A program made the position numbers and the translations under genes. 5,554 bases of DNA, from the IMG/VR virus record IMGVR_UViG_2698536506_000004. One strand, given 5' to 3'. The stretch comes from a virus. Its lineage: Duplodnaviria; Heunggongvirae; Uroviricota; Caudoviricetes. A model generated the notes under the pieces. It saw nothing but the letters and a program-made list of their open reading frames with translations. It did no database searches and had not been told where the DNA came from. This document shows, in pieces, positions 1 to 4,876 of the stretch (position 1 is its first letter; each line of letters starts with the position of its first letter).

Positions 1-217
1 CTTTTTTTATCGTCGTGGTGAGTCGAGACATAAACCGCTGATGTCGTGGCTGGCCTGGCTGCTGATGCTGCTTTATGCCTTTGCGCCGCTTTGTTATCTG
101 TGTGGTCGCTTTCCACCCGGTAACTGGCTGGTCGTCCTGATTAACCTGGTGTTCTGCGTGCTGGTGATACGAGCACGCGGGAACGTATCAAAAATCCTTG
201 TATTACGAAGGCGCTGA
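1..217 (+). CDS. Putative holin-like small membrane protein (class II-like, two predicted TM helices); 5' end may lie upstream of the window, only in-window start is ATG at 41
   Basis: Frame 2 is open from position 2 to stop TGA 215-217. From ATG 41 the product is MSWLAWLLMLLYAFAPLCYLCGRFPPGNWLVVLINLVFCVLVIRARGNVSKILVLRRR (58 aa): two hydrophobic stretches separated by a short RFPPGN turn, then a basic C-terminal tail, which is typical holin architecture. The stop lies 1 nt before the endolysin start (219), the usual holin-endolysin arrangement. No convincing SD precedes ATG 41, so the true start may be upstream. No homolog recognised from memory. Confidence 0.5.
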   Translation, partial: FFYRRGESRHKPLMSWLAWLLMLLYAFAPLCYLCGRFPPGNWLVVLINLVFCVLVIRARGNVSKILVLRRR

Positions 218-218
218 T

Positions 219-710
219 ATGAAGTCGAAAGATGAAATTTTTGACGAAATTCTGGGAAAAGAGGGCGGTTACGTCAATCACCCGGATGATAAAGGTGGTC
301 CGACTAAATGGGGCATCACTGAAAAAGTTGCCCGTGCACACGGTTATCAGGGCGATATGCGTGACCTGACGCGNNNNNNNNNNNNNNNNNNNNNNNNNNN
401 NNNNNNNNNNNNNNNNNNNNNNNNNNNNNNNNNNNNNNNNNNNNNNNNNNNNNNNNNNNNNNNNNNNNNNNNNNNNNNNNNNNNNNNNNNNNNNNNNNNN
501 NNNNNNNNNNNNNNNNNNNNNNNNNNNNNNNNNNNNNNNNNNNNNNNNNNNNNNNNNNNNNNNNNNNNNNNNNNNNNNNNNNNNNNNNNNNNNNNNNNNN
601 NNNNNNNNNNNNNNNNNNNNNNNNNNNNNNNNNNNNNNNNNNNNNNNNNNNNNNNNNNNNNNNNNNNNNNNNNNNNNNNNGGCTGGATGAAAGAGCGCGT
701 GGCTGTGTGA
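219..710 (+). CDS. Endolysin, glycoside hydrolase family 108-like lysozyme with probable C-terminal peptidoglycan-binding domain; interior hidden by assembly gap
   Basis: ATG 219 preceded by GAAGG (207-211) at 7-nt spacing. N-terminus MKSKDEIFDEILGKEGGYVNHPDDKGGPTKWGITEKVARAHGYQGDMRDLTR carries the EGGY...DxGGxTxxGIT signature I associate with GH108 phage lysozymes (catalytic Glu in EGGY). The frame re-emerges after the N-run as GWMKERVAV then TGA 708-710. No hydrophobic SAR/signal segment at the N-terminus, so it is holin-dependent. Frame continuity across the gap cannot be verified. Confidence 0.78.
   Translation: MKSKDEIFDEILGKEGGYVNHPDDKGGPTKWGITEKVARAHGYQGDMRDLTXXXXXXXXXXXXXXXXXXXXXXXXXXXXXXXXXXXXXXXXXXXXXXXXXXXXXXXXXXXXXXXXXXXXXXXXXXXXXXXXXXXXXXXXXXXXXXXXXXXXXXXGWMKERVAV
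374..680. other. Assembly gap (run of 307 N)
   Basis: Uninterrupted N characters from 374 to 680; true length and content unknown. All ORF-track entries crossing it are partly virtual. Confidence 0.99.
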
Positions 711-799
711 TAGCATTTAAAAATGATCATTATCAATGAGTTAAGTGTATTTTGCGTTTAATTTCTCCTGGGCGTACGCAACCAAAAGGAGAAATACGT

Positions 800-1006
800 A
801 TGAAGTACTATGTTCACACTCTTACAGATAATCAGAACGATCATGAGGTTCATACAGAAACATGTTTTCGACTTCCTGATGCAAACAATCGTAAAGAGCT
901 TGGAGAGTTTAGCTCATGTGAGCCGGCAGTGAAGGCCGCAAAAAATCTGGGTTACACGAGGGTGAATGGATGTTACTGGTGCTGCAGAGATTGCCATACA
1001 TCCTGA
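800..1006 (+). CDS. Hypothetical small cysteine-rich protein (68 aa), moron-like
   Basis: ATG 800 preceded by AAGGAG (786-791) at 8-nt spacing; stop TGA 1004-1006; followed by an intrinsic terminator. Product MKYYVHTLTDNQNDHEVHTETCFRLPDANNRKELGEFSSCEPAVKAAKNLGYTRVNGCYWCCRDCHTS has Cys at 22, 40, 58, 61, 62, 65 and His at 6, 15, 18, 66; no TM segment. The ORF-track entry from 752 uses an upstream TTG lacking an RBS. Family not recognised. Confidence 0.6.
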   Translation: MKYYVHTLTDNQNDHEVHTETCFRLPDANNRKELGEFSSCEPAVKAAKNLGYTRVNGCYWCCRDCHTS

Positions 1007-1032
1007 CATAAGGTGTGAATAATTCTGACAAA

Positions 1033-1057
1033 GGTCGCTTCGGCGGCCTTTTTTATT
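1033..1057 (+). terminator. Rho-independent terminator (UUCG tetraloop hairpin + U-tract)
   Basis: GGTCGC (1033-1038) / TTCG loop (1039-1042) / GCGGCC (1043-1048) gives a 6-bp stem with one G-U pair, immediately followed by TTTTTTATT (1049-1057). It sits 27 nt after the stop of the 800-1006 gene. Confidence 0.72.
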
Positions 1058-1085
1058 ACTCAAAAACGAAAGAACGGAGGTACGT

Positions 1086-1367
1086 ATGTACGCACTCAAG
1101 AAAATCACGGTAACAGAAGACGGTCGTCATGTTGAGGAAGTGCATGTCCTGGGGGATATGTACCGCCTGGAGTTCTATCCGCGTAACACTCATCTTGCAG
1201 CGAAGATTGAGTATTGCCGGGACGGGAATATTCCGTGCATTCCTGTAGAAAAAGAGGATGAAGCCTACATCATCACACTGAACGGTGACACGGCGCGTTG
1301 TATCTGTCGTGGCGACAGTGAAGCCCGGAATGAAATAGCAAGATGTCGCGCCCATACAGATAAATAA
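1086..1367 (+). CDS. Hypothetical small protein (93 aa), moron-like
   Basis: ATG 1086 preceded by GGAGG (1076-1080) at 5-nt spacing; stop TAA 1365-1367; followed by an intrinsic terminator. Product MYALKKITVTEDGRHVEEVHVLGDMYRLEFYPRNTHLAAKIEYCRDGNIPCIPVEKEDEAYIITLNGDTARCICRGDSEARNEIARCRAHTDK; Cys at 44, 51, 72, 74, 87; no TM segment. Family not recognised. Confidence 0.6.
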   Translation: MYALKKITVTEDGRHVEEVHVLGDMYRLEFYPRNTHLAAKIEYCRDGNIPCIPVEKEDEAYIITLNGDTARCICRGDSEARNEIARCRAHTDK

Positions 1368-1377
1368 AAAGCAAAAA

Positions 1378-1409
1378 CCCCGGCTGCGGGAACAGTTCGG
1401 GGTTTTCTG
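1378..1409 (+). terminator. Rho-independent terminator, possibly bidirectional
   Basis: CCCCG (1378-1382) pairs with CGGGG (1398-1402), with an inner CTG/CAG stem (1384-1386 / 1393-1395) around a 6-nt loop, followed by TTTTCTGTTTCTG (1403-1415). An A-rich run (1361-1377) upstream would give a U-tract for the minus strand as well. Confidence 0.65.
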
Positions 1410-1438
1410 TTTCTGACCTTGAGTAAGCAAGGGAGAAC

Positions 1439-1621
1439 ATGGAGAAGTATAAACGAATTCTGTTGAGGTTGACTATGAAAAACGGCCTTGAATTGAAAGC
1501 GCCTGTAACTGATGACATCAGCAGAGCGGTGGCTTTTGCCATTAAGTGGGTGGCGGTCGGCATCGCCGTGTCTCCGATGCTGTATGGGATGGCAAAGTTG
1601 ATTGTTGCTCTGAAATCGTGA
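1439..1621 (+). CDS. Hypothetical small membrane protein (60 aa; C-terminal TM helix); alternative start ATG 1475 (48 aa)
   Basis: ATG 1439 preceded by AAGG/GGGAGA (1429-1436); the internal ATG 1475 also has GAGG (1465-1468) at 6-nt spacing. Stop TGA 1619-1621. Product MEKYKRILLRLTMKNGLELKAPVTDDISRAVAFAIKWVAVGIAVSPMLYGMAKLIVALKS: a basic amphipathic N-terminus and a single hydrophobic segment (about residues 30-57) ending 3 residues before the C-terminus. Confidence 0.5.
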   Translation: MEKYKRILLRLTMKNGLELKAPVTDDISRAVAFAIKWVAVGIAVSPMLYGMAKLIVALKS

Positions 1622-1629
1622 GTGGTGAT

Positions 1630-1812
1630 ATGACGCGAAAACACTGGACACACAGAATGCCGCGAACGGCGGCGAAATGGGCACTGGTAGCGATACTGGT
1701 GCCTTTTTTATTGTCGGGATGCGTCAGCCTGGATAGGGCGCGTCAGCTTTTGGATGCTGCCTCTCAGGTCTGTGAAATTGTCAATGGTGTCCGGCAGTGT
1801 ATGCAGAACTGA
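1630..1812 (+). CDS. Hypothetical small lipoprotein (60 aa precursor; lipobox LSGC); alternative start ATG 1657
   Basis: ATG 1630 lies 8 nt after the stop of the preceding gene, suggesting translational coupling; the SD is weak (GGTGA 1624-1628). Product MTRKHWTHRMPRTAAKWALVAILVPFLLSGCVSLDRARQLLDAASQVCEIVNGVRQCMQN: basic n-region, hydrophobic core WALVAILVPFLL and lipobox L-S-G-C, giving a ~30-aa mature peptide with four Cys including the lipidated one. Stop TGA 1810-1812. Confidence 0.55.
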   Translation: MTRKHWTHRMPRTAAKWALVAILVPFLLSGCVSLDRARQLLDAASQVCEIVNGVRQCMQN

Positions 1813-1974: not shown

Positions 1975-2196
1975 ATGAAGAGATTACTGGTAACCGTAAA
2001 GCCCTTTAACGGAACGATTCCATTCAGGGTTTTGCAGCGTGGACGTGTTCTGGTTAAGGATATCTTCAGTGGTAAATGCACGGAATGTTATTCCCGGACA
2101 TATGAAGTGGATGCCACGGATGAAGAAATTTCTGTTGAATGTGATCTTAACGCGAATATGGCGGAGATTGTAACAGCCACGTTGTTGCCTGTTTAA
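1975..2196 (+). CDS. Hypothetical small protein (73 aa) immediately upstream of cos, moron-like
   Basis: ATG 1975 preceded by GGAGG (1966-1970) at 4-nt spacing; stop TAA 2194-2196. Product MKRLLVTVKPFNGTIPFRVLQRGRVLVKDIFSGKCTECYSRTYEVDATDEEISVECDLNANMAEIVTATLLPV; CxxC at 35-38 plus Cys 56; no TM segment. The ORF-track entry from 1852 is an N-terminal over-extension. Family not recognised. Confidence 0.55.
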   Translation: MKRLLVTVKPFNGTIPFRVLQRGRVLVKDIFSGKCTECYSRTYEVDATDEEISVECDLNANMAEIVTATLLPV

Positions 2197-2439: not shown

Positions 2440-2988
2440 ATGAAGGTTAATAAAAAGAAGCTCGCGGAAATTTTCAACGTGGATCCACGAACGATTGAAC
2501 GCTGGCAGTCTCAGGGGCTCTCTTGTGTCTCTGGTGGTAGTAAGGGGGTTGAATCTGTATTTGATACCGCCATGGCAATTCAGTGGTATGCGCAACGCGA
2601 AGCCGATATTGAAAACGAAAAACTCCGCAAAGAGACCGAGGATTTGCGTGCGGCTGCGGAATCAGATTTACAACCCGGCACCATTGACTATGAACGCTAC
2701 CGACTCACAAAAGCACAGGCTGATGCACAGGAACTGAAAAATGCCCGCGAAGAAGGGCTGGTACTGGAAACGGAATTGTTTACCTTCATTCTGCAACGTG
2801 TGGCACAGGAGATTTCGGGGATACTTGTACGTGTGCCGCTGACATTACAGCGTAAATATCCGGATATTTCACCGTCACACCTTGATGTGGTGAAAACTGA
2901 AATCGCAAAAGCCTCCAACGTTGCAGCTAAAGCTGGTGAGAACGTAGGCGGGTGGATTGATGATTTCAGACGCACAGAAGGCAGCTAA
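2440..2988 (+). CDS. nu1: Terminase small subunit (lambda gpNu1 homolog)
   Basis: Product [41 protein letters not shown]...[28 protein letters not shown]... is closely similar to lambda Nu1 (MEVNKKQLADIFGASIRTIQNWQEQGMPVLRGGGKGNEVLY...[28 protein letters not shown]..., from memory); 182 aa against 181 in lambda. Stop TAA 2986-2988. The ORF-track start at 2422 is an over-extension into cosB. Confidence 0.93.
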
Positions 2989-4876
2989 TGCAGCCGGTGC
3001 GATAGCAACAGGGCTTGTATCTCTCAATATTCCGGTACCACTGACGACAGTTCAGTGGGCTGATCAGCATTATTATCTGCCAAAAGAGTCTTCATATACT
3101 CCCGGGCAATGGGAAACACTGCCGTTTCAGGTTGCCATCATGAACAGCATGGGGAATGACCGGATCCGCACCGTTAATCTGATTAAATCGGCGCGTGTTG
3201 GTTACACCAAAATGCTGTTGGGGGTGGAGGCTTATTTTATTGAACACAAATCCCGTAACAGCCTGCTTTTTCAGCCGACAGATTCTGCGGCAGAAGATTT
3301 TATGAAATCCCATGTCGAACCAACGATAAGAGACGTTCCTGTATTACTGGAGCTGGCTCCGTGGTTTGGCAGAAAACATCGGGACAACACGCTTACCCTG
3401 AAACGTTTCTCCTCCGGTGTGGGATTCTGGTGTCTGGGCGGAGCTGCTGCCAAAAACTACCGTGAAAAATCTGTGGATGTGGTCTGCTATGACGAACTCT
3501 CCTCGTTTGAACCGGATGTGGAAAAAGAAGGTTCACCAACTCTGCTTGGCGATAAGCGTATCGAAGGTTCGGTATGGCCTAAATCCATACGCGGCTCAAC
3601 GCCCAAAATTAAAGGTTTTTGCCAGATTGAAAAAGCCGCGAACGAATCTGCACATTTTATGCGGTTTTATGTGCCATGCCCTCATTGTGGTGAAGCCCAG
3701 TATCTGAAGTTTGGCGATGATGCGACAACCTTTGGCCTGAAATGGGAGAAGGGCAAGCCGGAGACGGTGTATTACCTGTGTGAACATAATGGCTGCGTGA
3801 TCCGTCAGTCGGAACTTGACCAGACCGACGGGCGGTGGATTTGTGACAATACCGGGATGTGGACGCGTGACGGTCTGACATTTTACAGCGCCGGTGATGA
3901 GGAAATCCCGCCACCGCGCTCAATCTCGTACCACATCTGGACGGCATACAGCCCGTTCACCACCTGGGTACAGATTGTTTATGACTGGCTTGATGCACTG
4001 AAGGATCCGAATGGCGTCAAGACGTTCATTAACACCACGCTGGGGGAGCCTTATGAAGAGGCTGTGGCAAAAAAACTGAGCTTTGAGTTGTTGCTGGAAA
4101 AAGTCTGCCACTATGATGCGCAGGTTCCCCTGCGGGTGGTTTACCTGACCGCAGGGATTGACTCTCAGAAAAACCGTTATGAGATTTATGTCTGGGGCTG
4201 GGCTCCTGGCGAAGAAGCTTTTCTGATTGACAAGCAGATCATCATGGGGAGACCGGAAGATGAGGACACCCTTAAACGCGTTGATGCCGTGATCCGGAAA
4301 AAATACCGTCATGCAGATGGCACTGAAATTTCCATTTCCCGCGTCTGCTGGGATACCGGTGGTATTGACCAGGACATTGTGTATCAGCGATCCAGAAAAC
4401 ACGGCACTTTTTTTGTGCTCCCCATCAAAGGGGCGTCGGTGTACGGCAAGCCGGTGATCACCATGCCAAAAAAGCGAAACCAGCGTGGGGTGTTTTTGTG
4501 TGAGGTGGGTTCCGATACCGTCAAGGAAATGCTGTATGCGCGTTTTGCCCTGCCGGTGGTATCTGCCAGTGAAGTCGCACCGTATACCTTCCGTTTTCCG
4601 GATAACCCGGACATTTTTTCTGATGTTGAAGCTAAACAACTCGTGGCAGAAGAGCTGGTTGAAAAAGTTGTGAACGGGCGGGTGAAACTCCAGTGGGATG
4701 CCAGAAAACGGCGTAATGAAGCTCTGGACTGTCTGGTGTATGCCTATGCAGCGCTGCGCATTTCCGTTCAGCGGTGGCAACTGGATCTGGATGCACTGGC
4801 CCGCGCCAGAAGAGATGAACAGGACGACGATGAAATGACTATTGAAGAAATCGCGGCTGCTCTGAGTGGAGGATAA
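2960..4876 (+). CDS. A: Terminase large subunit (lambda gpA homolog; ATPase/endonuclease)
   Basis: ATG 2960 (GGTGG 2951-2955 upstream; the TTG at 2957 is an ORF-caller alternative), overlapping the Nu1 3' end by 29 nt as in lambda. The product is colinear with lambda gpA over its whole length, for example [27 protein letters not shown] against lambda VEWADANYYLPKESAYQEGRWETLPFQ, and the Walker-A-like KSARVGYTK at 3185-3211. Stop TAA 4874-4876; 638 aa against 641 in lambda. Confidence 0.95.

What the first reader, a model, noticed from the sequence alone, without database searches (positions are those of the whole stretch)
1..1812. Lysis cassette shows holin and endolysin but no recognisable canonical spanin genes downstream
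Lambdoid lysis cassettes of Gram-negative hosts usually run holin, endolysin, then Rz/Rz1-type spanins. Here the endolysin is followed by soluble Cys-containing proteins and the atypical pair above. No ORF of 130-180 aa with an N-terminal TM helix, and no embedded proline-rich lipoprotein, is visible. Spanins could lie upstream of the window, be hidden in the 374-680 gap, or be functionally replaced.
Basis: inference. Interest (0 to 1): 0.4.

Follow-up and report, generated by a model that had tools for sequence, protein, structure and literature searches.

The report
Lysis cassette with lipoprotein replacing spanins
This E. coli prophage lysis cassette really has no standard outer-membrane-breaking "spanin" genes; in their usual place is a tiny, conserved lipoprotein that was listed once as a possible minimal spanin, has never been tested, and has no recognisable inner-membrane partner.

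Summary
The window is the late region of a lambdoid E. coli prophage and is almost identical to strain C5. It runs Phage_holin_3_7 holin, GH108/PG_binding_3 endolysin, two small Cys-rich insert genes each followed by a terminator-like hairpin, a 60-aa membrane protein, a 60-aa lipoprotein, cos and the Nu1/A terminase.

No Rz/Rz1 or unimolecular spanin exists in the window. In C5 the N-gap region codes only for endolysin. Upstream lies a second holin (Phage_holin_8). Nothing spanin-like was found anywhere in the 48-kb C5 prophage.

The lipoprotein at 1630-1812 is under purifying selection and has three invariant cysteines. It is homologous to the ORF that Kongari et al. (2018) listed as the phiP27 "o-spanin", the shortest in their catalogue. 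Their phiP27 i-spanin ORF has no homolog in any other locus examined.

Family members sit directly after the endolysin gene across three holin types, two endolysin types and several packaging and tail modules. One related cassette carries canonical Rz/Rz1 in that position instead.

Most likely this lipoprotein is the cassette's outer-membrane lysis factor, working without a dedicated inner-membrane partner. That is inferred from gene context only. The 60-aa membrane protein is optional and also occurs in cassettes that have Rz.

The parts
1..217 (+). 3' part of the Phage_holin_3_7 holin gene. The full gene is 92 aa in C5 and starts 61 nt before the window. A 129-aa Phage_holin_8 gene lies directly upstream of it, outside the window.
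   Evidence: Pfam PF05449 1e-11 and PHROG 217 holin 1.8e-20. Full-length C5 homolog 8.4e-21 and upstream PF16931 3.7e-22. The 130-aa Phage_holin_8 homolog was deleted and complemented in porcine STEC, with loss and restoration of enrofloxacin-induced Stx2e release (PMC12571312).
219..710 (+). Endolysin, GH108 muramidase plus PG_binding_3. The masked run 374-680 lies wholly inside it.
   Evidence: In C5 the corresponding CDS is 181 aa, and the masked stretch (361 nt there) holds no lipobox or TM ORF in any frame.
800..1006 (+). 68-aa Cys-rich soluble protein (PHROG 4298, function unknown), followed by a terminator-like hairpin at 1030-1051. An insert-type gene, absent from most related cassettes.
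   Evidence: Close (100%) homologs occur in this position in only 4 of 80 loci.
1086..1367 (+). 93-aa Cys-containing soluble protein (PHROG 33497, function unknown), followed by a G+C-rich hairpin and T-run at about 1376-1404. An insert-type gene.
   Evidence: The hairpin is read directly from the sequence. The gene is frameshifted in C5.
1439..1621 (+). 60-aa membrane protein (PHROG 1115). The N-terminal 29 residues are basic (7 K/R, net +3) and the hydrophobic segment covers about residues 30-58. It is an optional accessory gene and not i-spanin-like.
   Evidence: It lies directly upstream of the lipoprotein in 30 of 60 loci. Homologs sit between R and canonical Rz in PhiR5_2 and directly before Rz in GER2. 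All database homologs are named 'hypothetical'.
1630..1812 (+). 60-aa prolipoprotein (PHROG 7528). The lipobox LLSG-C31 spans nt 1708-1722. The mature peptide is 30 aa, with Val at +2, invariant Cys48 (1771-1773) and Cys57 (1798-1800), no proline and net charge 0. It is the candidate outer-membrane lysis factor in the spanin position. An alternative start at 1657 would give 51 aa.
   Evidence: It is 85% identical in protein to phiP27 20679-20858, which covers the ORF listed as the phiP27 o-spanin at 20706-20861. pN/pS is 0.35 overall and 0.22 for the mature part, against 1.0-2.0 in the other frames.
1975..2196 (+). 73-aa soluble protein of unknown function between the lysis genes and cos.
   Evidence: PHROG 2571, 3.5e-28.
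2440..2988 (+). Terminase small subunit Nu1. It marks the end of the lysis region. gpA follows at 2957/2960-4876.
   Evidence: Pfam PF07471 2.3e-83 and C5 annotation.

Best explanation
The window carries a phiP27-type lysis cassette that truly lacks Rz/Rz1 and unimolecular spanins. The gene order is Phage_holin_8, Phage_holin_3_7, cytoplasmic GH108 endolysin, then a small lipoprotein (1630-1812).

The position normally held by spanins, directly after the endolysin gene, is held by this 60-aa prolipoprotein. It has a lipobox and a +2 Val, which under the standard Lol sorting rule sends it to the outer membrane (inferred, not shown). Its 30-residue mature part is predicted helical and has two invariant cysteines.

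Most likely it is made from the Q-dependent late transcript together with the holins and endolysin. It would be anchored in the inner leaflet of the outer membrane, possibly as a disulfide-linked oligomer, and would destabilise the outer membrane once the endolysin has removed the cell wall. That makes it a functional replacement for a spanin that works without a dedicated phage-encoded inner-membrane subunit.

Shown here: canonical spanins are absent; the lipoprotein is a real, selected gene; it is linked to the 3' end of endolysin genes; no neighbouring partner is conserved in sequence. Inferred: outer-membrane location, late expression, disulfide bonding and any role in lysis.

In this window two insert-type genes (800-1006, 1086-1367) and an optional membrane-protein gene (1439-1621) have come between the endolysin and the lipoprotein. 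A 44-aa membrane-protein gene that usually separates the last two is deleted.
For: 1. Canonical spanins are absent from the window, the gap, the upstream region and the whole prophage.

2. The lipoprotein is a real gene. pN/pS is 0.35 (0.22 in the mature part) against about 1-2 in the other frames. The lipobox Cys and two further Cys are invariant in 43 protein variants.

3. It sits in the spanin position. Of 67 evaluable Phage_holin_8-anchored IMG/VR loci, 59 have the lipoprotein and no Rz, 1 has canonical Rz with embedded Rz1 in the same position and no lipoprotein (L095), 1 has both (L081, where the lipoprotein is N-terminally truncated), and 6 have neither.

4. It is tightly linked to the endolysin gene. 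In 24 of 60 loci it starts 15 nt after the M15 endolysin stop. In Yersinia enterocolitica its start overlaps the GH108 endolysin stop by 4 nt.

5. Remote family members found by profile search also follow the endolysin by 4-7 nt. One sits in a cassette with a single lambda-S-type holin (Phage_holin_3_1) and Peptidase_M15_4.

6. The linkage is independent of holin type (three), endolysin type (two) and packaging or tail module (Nu1/A, HNH plus Terminase_4, Terminase_2, and modules with a tail sheath or baseplate).

7. Within about 5-6 kb of flank, the lipoprotein is the only ORF of L109 with a homolog in all five compared loci.

8. No sigma-70-like promoter is predicted on the + strand upstream of it.

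9. The cassette occurs in phages deposited as complete genomes (phiP27, phiSTEC1575-Stx2k, vB_Apl-pPE4), and none has Rz annotated in the lysis region.

10. Kongari et al. independently listed the phiP27 homolog as an o-spanin, with a 30-aa periplasmic part predicted 83% helical.

11. In the Rz-bearing phage GER2 only a decayed remnant of the gene remains.
Against: There is no experimental evidence for any member.

Thirty residues (about 4.5 nm as a helix, about 10.5 nm fully extended) cannot bridge the periplasm, and no known mechanism exists for a lone lipoprotein of this kind.

The mature peptide is neutral and only moderately amphipathic (muH 0.36-0.55), so it is not obviously membrane-lytic.

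The AF2 model has low confidence (mean pLDDT 68.5, pTM 0.30).

Six of 67 related loci have neither the lipoprotein nor Rz. The gene may therefore be dispensable, or those prophages may be defective.

The 67 loci are close relatives (holin 83-100% identical), so the counts are not independent events. The one locus with Rz replacing the lipoprotein and the one with both are single cases.

Weak matches to 'Rz-like spanin' PHROGs (E 0.04-0.25) begin in the signal peptide and lipobox and extend only partly into the mature peptide. They are not evidence of homology.
Confidence: 0.55

Rival explanations
1. The two adjacent genes form a true but miniature two-component spanin. The 60-aa membrane protein (1439-1621) would be the inner-membrane subunit and the lipoprotein (1630-1812) the outer-membrane subunit, as Kongari et al. 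proposed in principle for phiP27.
For: The genes are adjacent, 8 nt apart, in the order i then o. A related small membrane protein lies directly upstream of the lipoprotein in 30 of 60 loci. The phiP27 pair is catalogued as a 'separated' two-component spanin with 62 periplasmic residues in total.
Against: The membrane protein has its hydrophobic segment at the C-terminus. Its 29-aa N-terminal part has 7 K/R and net +3, which the positive-inside rule places in the cytoplasm, leaving 2-12 residues outside.

It is absent from half of the lipoprotein-bearing cassettes, including the Yersinia locus and the remote ones. Its homologs occur directly before canonical Rz in PhiR5_2 and GER2.

The ORF that Kongari et al. 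took as the phiP27 i-spanin is a different one. It starts with TTG, lies antisense to a 90-aa ORF, and has no homolog in any of the other loci held.
Confidence: 0.1
2. The cassette has no spanin function at all and the lipoprotein has nothing to do with lysis. It would be a cargo gene, for example for superinfection exclusion like Cor or Llp, or another envelope function. Outer-membrane rupture would then rely on shear, low divalent cations or an unrecognised factor.
For: About 13% of phages of Gram-negative hosts (91 of 677) had no identifiable spanin in the catalogue. This region of lambdoid phages collects cargo genes, here 800-1006 and 1086-1367, and LT-II, KilA-N or Stx genes in relatives. 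Six related loci lack the lipoprotein. Small disulfide-containing lipoproteins that block receptors are known (own knowledge: T5 Llp, phi80 Cor).
Against: The gene is joined to the endolysin stop codon (4-nt overlap, or 4-15 nt spacing) in many cassettes and has no predicted promoter of its own.

It stays with the endolysin while the packaging and tail modules downstream change. That is the opposite of what is expected for a receptor-specific exclusion protein. From own knowledge, cor and llp lie next to tail or receptor-binding genes.

It shows strong purifying selection and near-exclusivity with Rz/Rz1.
Confidence: 0.2
3. The lipoprotein works like a colicin lysis (bacteriocin release) protein. 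As a very small lipopeptide it would perturb the outer membrane and activate the host phospholipase OmpLA, rather than acting by spanin-like membrane fusion.
For: The size class and chemistry are the same: a precursor of 51-60 aa, a mature lipopeptide of 30 aa and a release function by context (the comparison is from own knowledge of ColE1 and cloacin DF13 lysis proteins). No inner-membrane partner would be needed, which fits.
Against: There is no match to Pfam Lysis_col or any other family at E<=1. Colicin lysis proteins are Gly/Ser-rich, unstructured and lack the two conserved cysteines (own knowledge), whereas this peptide is predicted helical. Here a holin and an endolysin are present, which colicin operons lack.
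Confidence: 0.1
4. The prophage is simply defective and has lost its Rz/Rz1 genes by deletion.
For: Local rearrangement is visible. A 148-nt deletion removed a 44-aa ORF. The 93-aa ORF is frameshifted in C5. There are two insert genes. Some relatives carry larger deletions in this region, for example L027.
Against: The same spanin-free arrangement occurs in 59 of 67 related loci, in 10 of 10 genome contexts examined, in Yersinia and Salmonella, and in the deposited complete phage genomes phiP27 and phiSTEC1575-Stx2k. No Rz or Rz1 remnant is detectable in the window. The rest of the C5 prophage looks complete from integrase to tail fibres.
Confidence: 0.05

Closest known systems
phiP27 'separated two-component spanin' (Kongari et al. 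2018, BMC Bioinformatics 19:326; singleton i- and o-spanin families)
   Same: The window lipoprotein is 85% identical in protein (about 92% in DNA) to the phiP27 ORF listed as the o-spanin at 20706-20861. The upstream holin pair is the same, and the gene lies in the same position after the endolysin.
   Different: phiP27 has an M15 peptidase endolysin rather than GH108. The ORF listed as the phiP27 i-spanin (20348-20542, 64 aa, TTG start) is absent here and from every other locus examined. Here a different, optional membrane protein with a C-terminal TMD precedes the lipoprotein. Neither assignment has been tested experimentally.
Lambda Rz/Rz1 (embedded two-component spanin; Pfam PF03245 and Rz1)
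   Same: Same position in a lambdoid late operon, after S and R and before cos/Nu1. The outer-membrane component is a roughly 60-aa prolipoprotein with periplasmic cysteine. One related cassette (L095) carries true Rz/Rz1 in this position.
   Different: There is no inner-membrane subunit with an N-terminal TMD and coiled-coil periplasmic domain. The mature lipoprotein has 30 aa and no proline, against 40 aa with 10 Pro in Rz1. It is not embedded in another gene and has no sequence match.
T1 gp11 unimolecular spanin
   Same: A single gene with an N-terminal lipoprotein signal in a lysis cassette and no separate partner.
   Different: gp11-type proteins have a C-terminal TMD that anchors them in the inner membrane and a long beta-rich periplasmic domain. 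Here the C-terminal 28 residues contain no hydrophobic segment and the whole mature part is 30 aa.
Colicin lysis / bacteriocin release lipoproteins (Pfam Lysis_col)
   Same: Very small mature lipopeptides (about 28-35 aa) that compromise the outer membrane for release, with no inner-membrane partner (own knowledge).
   Different: No sequence similarity. The composition differs: helical with two Cys, against Gly/Ser-rich. The gene context is a phage holin-endolysin cassette, not a colicin operon.
phiKT gp28 'disruptin' (bioRxiv 10.1101/515445)
   Same: A non-spanin solution to outer-membrane disruption in a phage that lacks spanins.
   Different: gp28 is described as a cationic antimicrobial peptide. 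The protein here is a neutral lipoprotein (net charge 0).

Membership tests
Two-component spanin (Rz/Rz1 type, as defined in Kongari et al. 2018) | o-spanin: a small outer-membrane lipoprotein with a signal peptide and lipobox, encoded in or next to the i-spanin gene | tested here: met
   Lipobox LLSG-C31 after a basic n-region and a hydrophobic h-region. Residue +2 is Val, not Asp. Lipidation and outer-membrane location themselves were not tested.
Two-component spanin (Rz/Rz1 type, as defined in Kongari et al. 2018) | i-spanin: a type II inner-membrane protein with an N-terminal TMD and a periplasmic, usually coiled-coil, domain, encoded adjacent to, overlapping or embedding the o-spanin gene | tested here: not met
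   The adjacent 60-aa protein has its hydrophobic segment at residues about 30-58, with 2-12 residues after it. No credible i-spanin-like ORF of 70-230 aa with an N-terminal TMD exists in the 48-kb prophage. Many family members have no membrane-protein gene nearby.
Two-component spanin (Rz/Rz1 type, as defined in Kongari et al. 2018) | Combined periplasmic domains long enough to connect the inner and outer membranes (catalogue range 62-300 residues) | tested here: not met
   The mature lipoprotein has 30 residues, about 4.5 nm as a helix, and no periplasmic domain can be assigned to a partner. The phiP27 value of 62 depends on an i-spanin ORF that is not conserved.
Two-component spanin (Rz/Rz1 type, as defined in Kongari et al. 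2018) | Periplasmic cysteine(s) available for intermolecular disulfide bonds | tested here: met
   Cys48 and Cys57 are invariant in 43 protein variants and in the remote homologs. Actual disulfide formation was not tested.
Two-component spanin (Rz/Rz1 type, as defined in Kongari et al. 2018) | Function: needed for outer-membrane disruption, with a spherical-cell phenotype in Mg2+ when absent; complements lambda Rz-am Rz1-am | not testable with these tools
   Needs genetics and microscopy.
Rz (PF03245) and Rz1 sequence families | A significant profile match | tested here: not met
   No Pfam or NCBIfam hit at E<=1 for any small ORF in the window. As a positive control, Rz of PhiR5_2 scores 8.6e-51. 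PHROG 'Rz-like spanin' hits reach only E 0.04-0.25; they begin in the signal peptide and extend only partly into the mature peptide.
Unimolecular spanin (T1 gp11 type) | An N-terminal lipoprotein signal AND a C-terminal transmembrane domain in one polypeptide | tested here: not met
   The lipobox is present, but the 28 residues after the signal-peptide hydrophobic window contain no hydrophobic segment. The only hydrophobic window is the signal peptide.
phiP27-type small lysis-cassette lipoprotein (PHROG 7528; the phiP27 'o-spanin' singleton) | Sequence homology over the full length, with the lipobox and two C-terminal cysteines | tested here: met
   PHROG 7528 E=9e-37 over residues 1-60. 85% protein identity to phiP27. 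Conserved pattern GC-x16-C-x8-C.
phiP27-type small lysis-cassette lipoprotein (PHROG 7528; the phiP27 'o-spanin' singleton) | Location downstream of the endolysin gene in a holin-endolysin cassette | tested here: met
   The window order is holin, endolysin, (inserts), lipoprotein. The same order is seen.
Colicin lysis protein (Pfam Lysis_col) | A profile match and location in a colicin operon | tested here: not met
   No Pfam hit at E<=1. The context is a phage late operon.
Receptor-blocking exclusion lipoproteins (Cor, Llp) | Linkage to the tail or receptor-binding module of one phage type | tested here: not met
   The gene stays with the endolysin while the downstream packaging and tail modules differ. 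The usual position of cor and llp is from own knowledge.

The most novel reading that the evidence does not exclude
A 30-residue, disulfide-bearing outer-membrane lipoprotein is enough by itself, with no inner-membrane subunit, for the last step of phage lysis. That would be a third kind of outer-membrane disruptor alongside spanins and the cationic disruptin. It would be used by a cassette family found in about 6.6% of complete E. coli genomes and in Stx2e, Stx2k and LT-II-associated prophages.
Probability: 0.3. Interest if true: 0.75.

Novelty: new variant of a known kind. Interest (0 to 1): 0.45.

Why it matters
Spanins are treated as the near-universal third step of lysis in Gram-negative hosts, and only one alternative has been described, the phiKT disruptin.

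This cassette family is common. The lipoprotein gene is present in 356 of 5,426 complete E. coli genomes, with up to 7 copies in one genome. It lies next to toxin genes whose release depends on phage lysis (Stx2e, Stx2k, LT-II).

If the small lipoprotein does the outer-membrane step alone, three things follow. It would define a minimal mechanism that can be tested. It would correct a catalogue entry, since the phiP27 i-spanin is not conserved. And it would give a handle on toxin and virion release from these prophages.

There is also an annotation point. The gene is not annotated in the RefSeq record of strain C5, so automated spanin surveys will score such phages as lacking spanins.

Tried and rejected
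- **Spanin in the masked gap.** Rejected. The C5 sequence shows only the endolysin there.
- **Spanin upstream of the window.** Rejected. The gene there is a second holin, Phage_holin_8.
- **Spanin elsewhere in the prophage, as in T4.** Rejected by a lipobox and N-terminal-TMD scan of 48.3 kb. The only other lipoprotein is an SPFH-domain protein in the early region.
- **The 60-aa membrane protein as i-spanin.** Rejected on topology and distribution.
- **One of the two holins as the constant inner-membrane partner.** Weakened. A remote family member sits in a cassette with a single, unrelated lambda-S-type holin, and no flanking ORF is shared across divergent loci.
- **Remote homology to known families.** A profile search of 1.84 billion proteins found only 23 hits, all of the same small-lipoprotein type or fragments and fusions. 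Pfam and NCBIfam found nothing. PHROGs gave only 'unknown function' families plus sub-threshold hits to spanin families that start in the signal peptide.
- **AF2 model of the lipoprotein.** One long helix at low confidence (pLDDT 68.5). It was not informative and no fold search was run.
- **Literature.** No experimental study of the phiP27-type lipoprotein was found. The only functional data on this cassette concern the Phage_holin_8 gene.

Full report
**What the window is**

The 5,554-nt window is the late region of a lambdoid E. coli prophage. Bases 1-2450 match E. coli strain C5 (NZ_CP010122.1) at essentially 100% outside the masked run. I used the annotated C5 region as a stand-in for everything hidden or outside the window.

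The gene order in the window is as follows:

| Window position | Feature |
|---|---|
| 1-217 | 3' end of a Phage_holin_3_7 holin gene |
| 219-710 | GH108 plus PG_binding_3 endolysin; the N-run 374-680 lies inside it |
| 800-1006 | 68-aa Cys-rich ORF |
| 1086-1367 | 93-aa ORF |
| 1439-1621 | 60-aa membrane protein |
| 1630-1812 | 60-aa lipoprotein |
| 1975-2196 | 73-aa ORF |
| about 2240-2300 | lambda-like cos region |
| 2440-2988 | Nu1 |
| from 2957/2960 | gpA, then gpW and the start of the portal gene |

**Checking the observation**

No ORF in the window has an N-terminal TM helix followed by a 70-230-aa body, and none carries an embedded proline-rich lipoprotein. None of the small ORFs matches any Pfam or NCBIfam family at E<=1, including Rz and Rz1. 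As a control, a true Rz from phage PhiR5_2 scores 8.6e-51 in the same search.

- **The gap.** In C5 it is 361 nt, against 307 N in the window. The 54-nt difference keeps the frame. It codes for the middle of a 181-aa endolysin. The only alternative-frame ORFs there are 36 and 44 aa and have no lipobox or hydrophobic segment.
- **Upstream.** From Q towards the window lie an ompC gene on the opposite strand, a 65-aa hypothetical gene, a DNA methylase, tRNA-Gly, and a 129-aa Phage_holin_8 gene that overlaps the start of the Phage_holin_3_7 gene.
- **The whole prophage.** I joined the C5 prophage from integrase to the ssrA attachment site (48.3 kb). I scanned every ORF from every start codon for lipoprotein signals and for N-terminal TMDs. 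The only late-region lipoprotein is the 60-aa ORF equal to window 1630-1812. The only other lipoprotein is a 275-aa SPFH-domain protein in the early region. The only clean N-terminal hydrophobic hit of i-spanin size is Lom, an outer-membrane barrel with a signal peptide.

So canonical spanins are absent, not merely unseen.

**What occupies the spanin position**

The 1630-1812 ORF encodes MTRKHWTHRMPRTAAKWALVAILVPFLLSG|CVSLDRARQLLDAASQVCEIVNGVRQCMQN. It has a basic n-region, a hydrophobic h-region, the lipobox LLSG-C31 and Val at +2. Under the standard sorting rule that sends it to the outer membrane. The mature peptide has 30 residues, no proline, net charge 0 and two further cysteines.

It is a real gene. 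Across 47 distinct nucleotide variants, pN/pS is 0.35 in its frame and 0.22 for the mature part, against about 1.0-2.0 in the other two frames. The three cysteines are invariant.

It belongs to PHROG 7528 (E=9e-37, 'unknown function'). All 119 database relatives are from Enterobacteriaceae and are named 'hypothetical' or simply 'Lipoprotein'. The gene is present in 356 of 5,426 complete E. coli genomes, with up to seven copies in one genome. No feature is annotated over it in the C5 RefSeq record.

**Link to the literature**

The gene is about 92% identical in DNA and 85% in protein to a stretch of Stx2e phage phiP27. Kongari et al. (2018, PMC6139136) list phiP27 as having a 'separated' two-component spanin, with the i-spanin at 20348-20542 and the o-spanin at 20706-20861. 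They describe it as the shortest in their set, with 62 periplasmic residues in total: 32 for the i-spanin and 30 for the o-spanin, the latter predicted 83% helical. Their o-spanin is the homolog of the window lipoprotein, read from an internal Met.

Their i-spanin is a 64-aa ORF that starts with TTG and lies antisense to a well-formed 90-aa ORF, inside an insertion specific to phiP27. A tblastn search of it against all the other loci held at that point found nothing. The catalogued i-spanin is therefore not a conserved partner.

**Gene context across relatives**

Ten genome contexts of one lipoprotein variant all show Phage_holin_8, Phage_holin_3_7, GH108 endolysin, 60-aa membrane protein, (44-aa membrane protein), lipoprotein. 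This holds whether the packaging module downstream is lambda Nu1/A or HNH plus Terminase_4.

I fetched 80 IMG/VR loci anchored on the Phage_holin_8 gene; 67 could be evaluated.

| Content after the endolysin | Loci |
|---|---|
| Lipoprotein, no Rz | 59 |
| Rz with embedded proline-rich Rz1 in the same position, no lipoprotein (L095) | 1 |
| Both, with an N-terminally truncated lipoprotein (L081) | 1 |
| Neither | 6 |

The endolysin in these loci is either GH108 (25 loci) or an M15 peptidase (42 loci). In 24 of the 60 lipoprotein-bearing loci, the lipoprotein starts 15 nt after the M15 endolysin stop with nothing in between. In a Yersinia enterocolitica prophage its ATG overlaps the GH108 endolysin stop by 4 nt.

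A profile search of 1.84 billion proteins found a handful of more distant members with the same pattern, lipobox-C, x16, C, x8, C. Two of their contexts could be read. One is Phage_holin_8, Phage_holin_3_7, Peptidase_M15_4, lipoprotein. The other is a single lambda-S-type holin (Phage_holin_3_1), Peptidase_M15_4, lipoprotein, in a phage with quite different tail genes. In both, the lipoprotein starts 4-7 nt after the endolysin.

Comparing all ORFs of that last locus with five divergent loci, the lipoprotein is the only one with a homolog in all five.

In the Rz-bearing Stx phage GER2, only a frame-broken remnant of the lipoprotein gene remains downstream of Rz.

**The other member of the 'atypical pair'**

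The 60-aa protein (1439-1621, PHROG 1115) has a basic 29-residue N-terminal part (7 K/R, net +3). Its only hydrophobic stretch is at residues about 30-58. By the positive-inside rule it is tail-anchored, with almost nothing in the periplasm. That is the opposite of an i-spanin.

It or a 47%-identical relative lies directly upstream of the lipoprotein in 30 of 60 loci. Homologs also lie between R and canonical Rz in PhiR5_2 and directly before Rz in GER2. It is therefore an optional accessory of the region after the endolysin, not a spanin subunit. Its function is unknown. One possibility is a role at the holin step, like the 65-aa Lcc6 protein reported for Shewanella phage LambdaSo (bioRxiv 10.1101/2024.01.23.576932), but I could not test this.

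In most relatives a 44-aa membrane-protein gene (PHROG 4906) separates it from the lipoprotein gene. The window has a clean 148-nt deletion of that gene.

**How it most likely works**

Three things are shown. The cassette lacks canonical spanins. A selected small lipoprotein gene sits in the spanin position. It travels with the 3' end of endolysin genes, independent of holin, endolysin, packaging and tail types.

The rest is inferred. The gene would be transcribed with the late operon, since no + strand promoter-like site is predicted before it and the terminator-like hairpins upstream would be read through under Q. The protein would be lipidated and sent to the outer membrane. It may pair through its cysteines, as Rz1 and T4 PseT.2 do. 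It would then weaken or breach the outer membrane once the endolysin has removed the wall.

I put about 0.55 on 'outer-membrane lysis factor replacing a spanin', and within that I favour action without a dedicated inner-membrane subunit.

Several points argue against it. Thirty residues cannot span the periplasm. The peptide is neutral and only moderately amphipathic. The AF2 model is a single low-confidence helix. Six related loci have neither gene. The loci compared are close relatives, so the counts are not independent. Nothing has been tested at the bench.

The only experimental data on this cassette concern the upstream Phage_holin_8 gene. Its deletion abolished, and its re-supply restored, enrofloxacin-induced Stx2e release in porcine STEC (PMC12571312).

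**Rivals**

- **A miniature two-component spanin made of the two adjacent genes (0.1).** Topology and distribution argue against it.
- **A cassette without any spanin function, in which the lipoprotein is unrelated cargo such as an exclusion protein (0.2).** The tight join to the endolysin gene argues against it, as does the lack of linkage to any one tail module.
- **A colicin-lysis-protein-like mechanism through OmpLA (0.1).** The size and chemistry are similar, but there is no sequence match and the composition differs.
- **Simple loss of Rz/Rz1 in a defective prophage (0.05).** The same arrangement recurs in many genomes and in deposited complete phage genomes.

**Novelty and score**

The absence of canonical spanins in phiP27-like cassettes is implicit in earlier surveys. 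Rz was found in 277 of 279 Stx phages, and a small cluster had a metallopeptidase endolysin (PMC8136144). The lipoprotein family is already catalogued as a putative o-spanin. So the window is a new member of a catalogued but untested family.

Three points are added here. The catalogued i-spanin is not conserved. The adjacent membrane protein is not an i-spanin. And the lipoprotein alone is the constant element after the endolysin. Together these make it a variant that fails the two-component definition.

I score interest at 0.45. It is moderate as it stands and would be clearly higher if a solo lipoprotein were shown to carry out the outer-membrane step.

Noticed in passing
window 1621-1630 (compare L002 3176-3331 and L005 4844-5000): The window has a clean 148-nt deletion relative to E. 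coli R1 and other genomes. It removes a 44-aa membrane-protein gene (PHROG 4906) that normally lies between the 60-aa membrane-protein gene and the lipoprotein gene, leaving the two only 8 nt apart.
   Followed up: yes
window 374-680: The masked run is 307 N, but the corresponding stretch in the otherwise identical C5 genome is 361 nt. The 54-nt difference keeps the endolysin frame. It could be a real 18-codon difference in the source genome or an effect of masking; I cannot tell which.
   Followed up: partly
window 1630-1812 and 800-1006; L001 10683-10865 and 9854-10060: Neither the lipoprotein gene nor the 68-aa Cys-rich ORF is annotated in the C5 RefSeq record. phiP27 L32 is annotated in the wrong frame over the lipoprotein gene. 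Automated surveys would miss this gene.
   Followed up: partly
window 800-1006 and 1086-1367: Two small Cys-rich soluble proteins (PHROGs 4298 and 33497, function unknown), each followed by a terminator-like hairpin, are inserted between the endolysin and the rest of the cassette. The 93-aa ORF is intact in the window but frameshifted in C5.
   Followed up: partly
L003 (phiP27) 3658-3852: The ORF catalogued as the phiP27 i-spanin starts with TTG, lies antisense to a 90-aa ORF (3642-3914, minus strand) and has no homolog in any other locus held. It is probably a false assignment.
   Followed up: yes
L001 4782-5885 (C5 prophage, upstream of the window): A full-length ompC porin gene lies on the opposite strand between the Q antiterminator and the lysis cassette of this prophage.
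   Followed up: no
L024 7030-8042 (C5 prophage early region): A 275-aa SPFH-domain lipoprotein with an adjacent 62-aa membrane protein is encoded on the minus strand of the early region. It may be a cargo or defence pair.
   Followed up: no
L107 (phage GER2) 3488-3681: A frame-broken remnant of the lipoprotein gene lies about 750 nt downstream of canonical Rz in an Stx phage. A 50-aa homolog of the window's 60-aa membrane protein lies directly before Rz (2130-2282).
   Followed up: yes
window about 2240-2300: The sequence ACGGGGCGGCAGCGGCGCGGATTTTCGCTATTTATGAAAATTTTTCGG closely resembles the lambda cosN/cosB region as I recall it. It lies just before Nu1, so the lysis region ends at cos, as in lambda.
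   Followed up: no
L015 (SerU-LTIIb) and L016 (vB_Apl-pPE4): In relatives, the space after the endolysin carries toxin or other cargo: LT-IIb A and B genes in SerU-LTIIb, which has no lipoprotein, and a KilA-N gene in vB_Apl-pPE4. vB_Apl-pPE4 is deposited as an Actinobacillus phage but carries this E. coli-type cassette at about 92% DNA identity.
   Followed up: no
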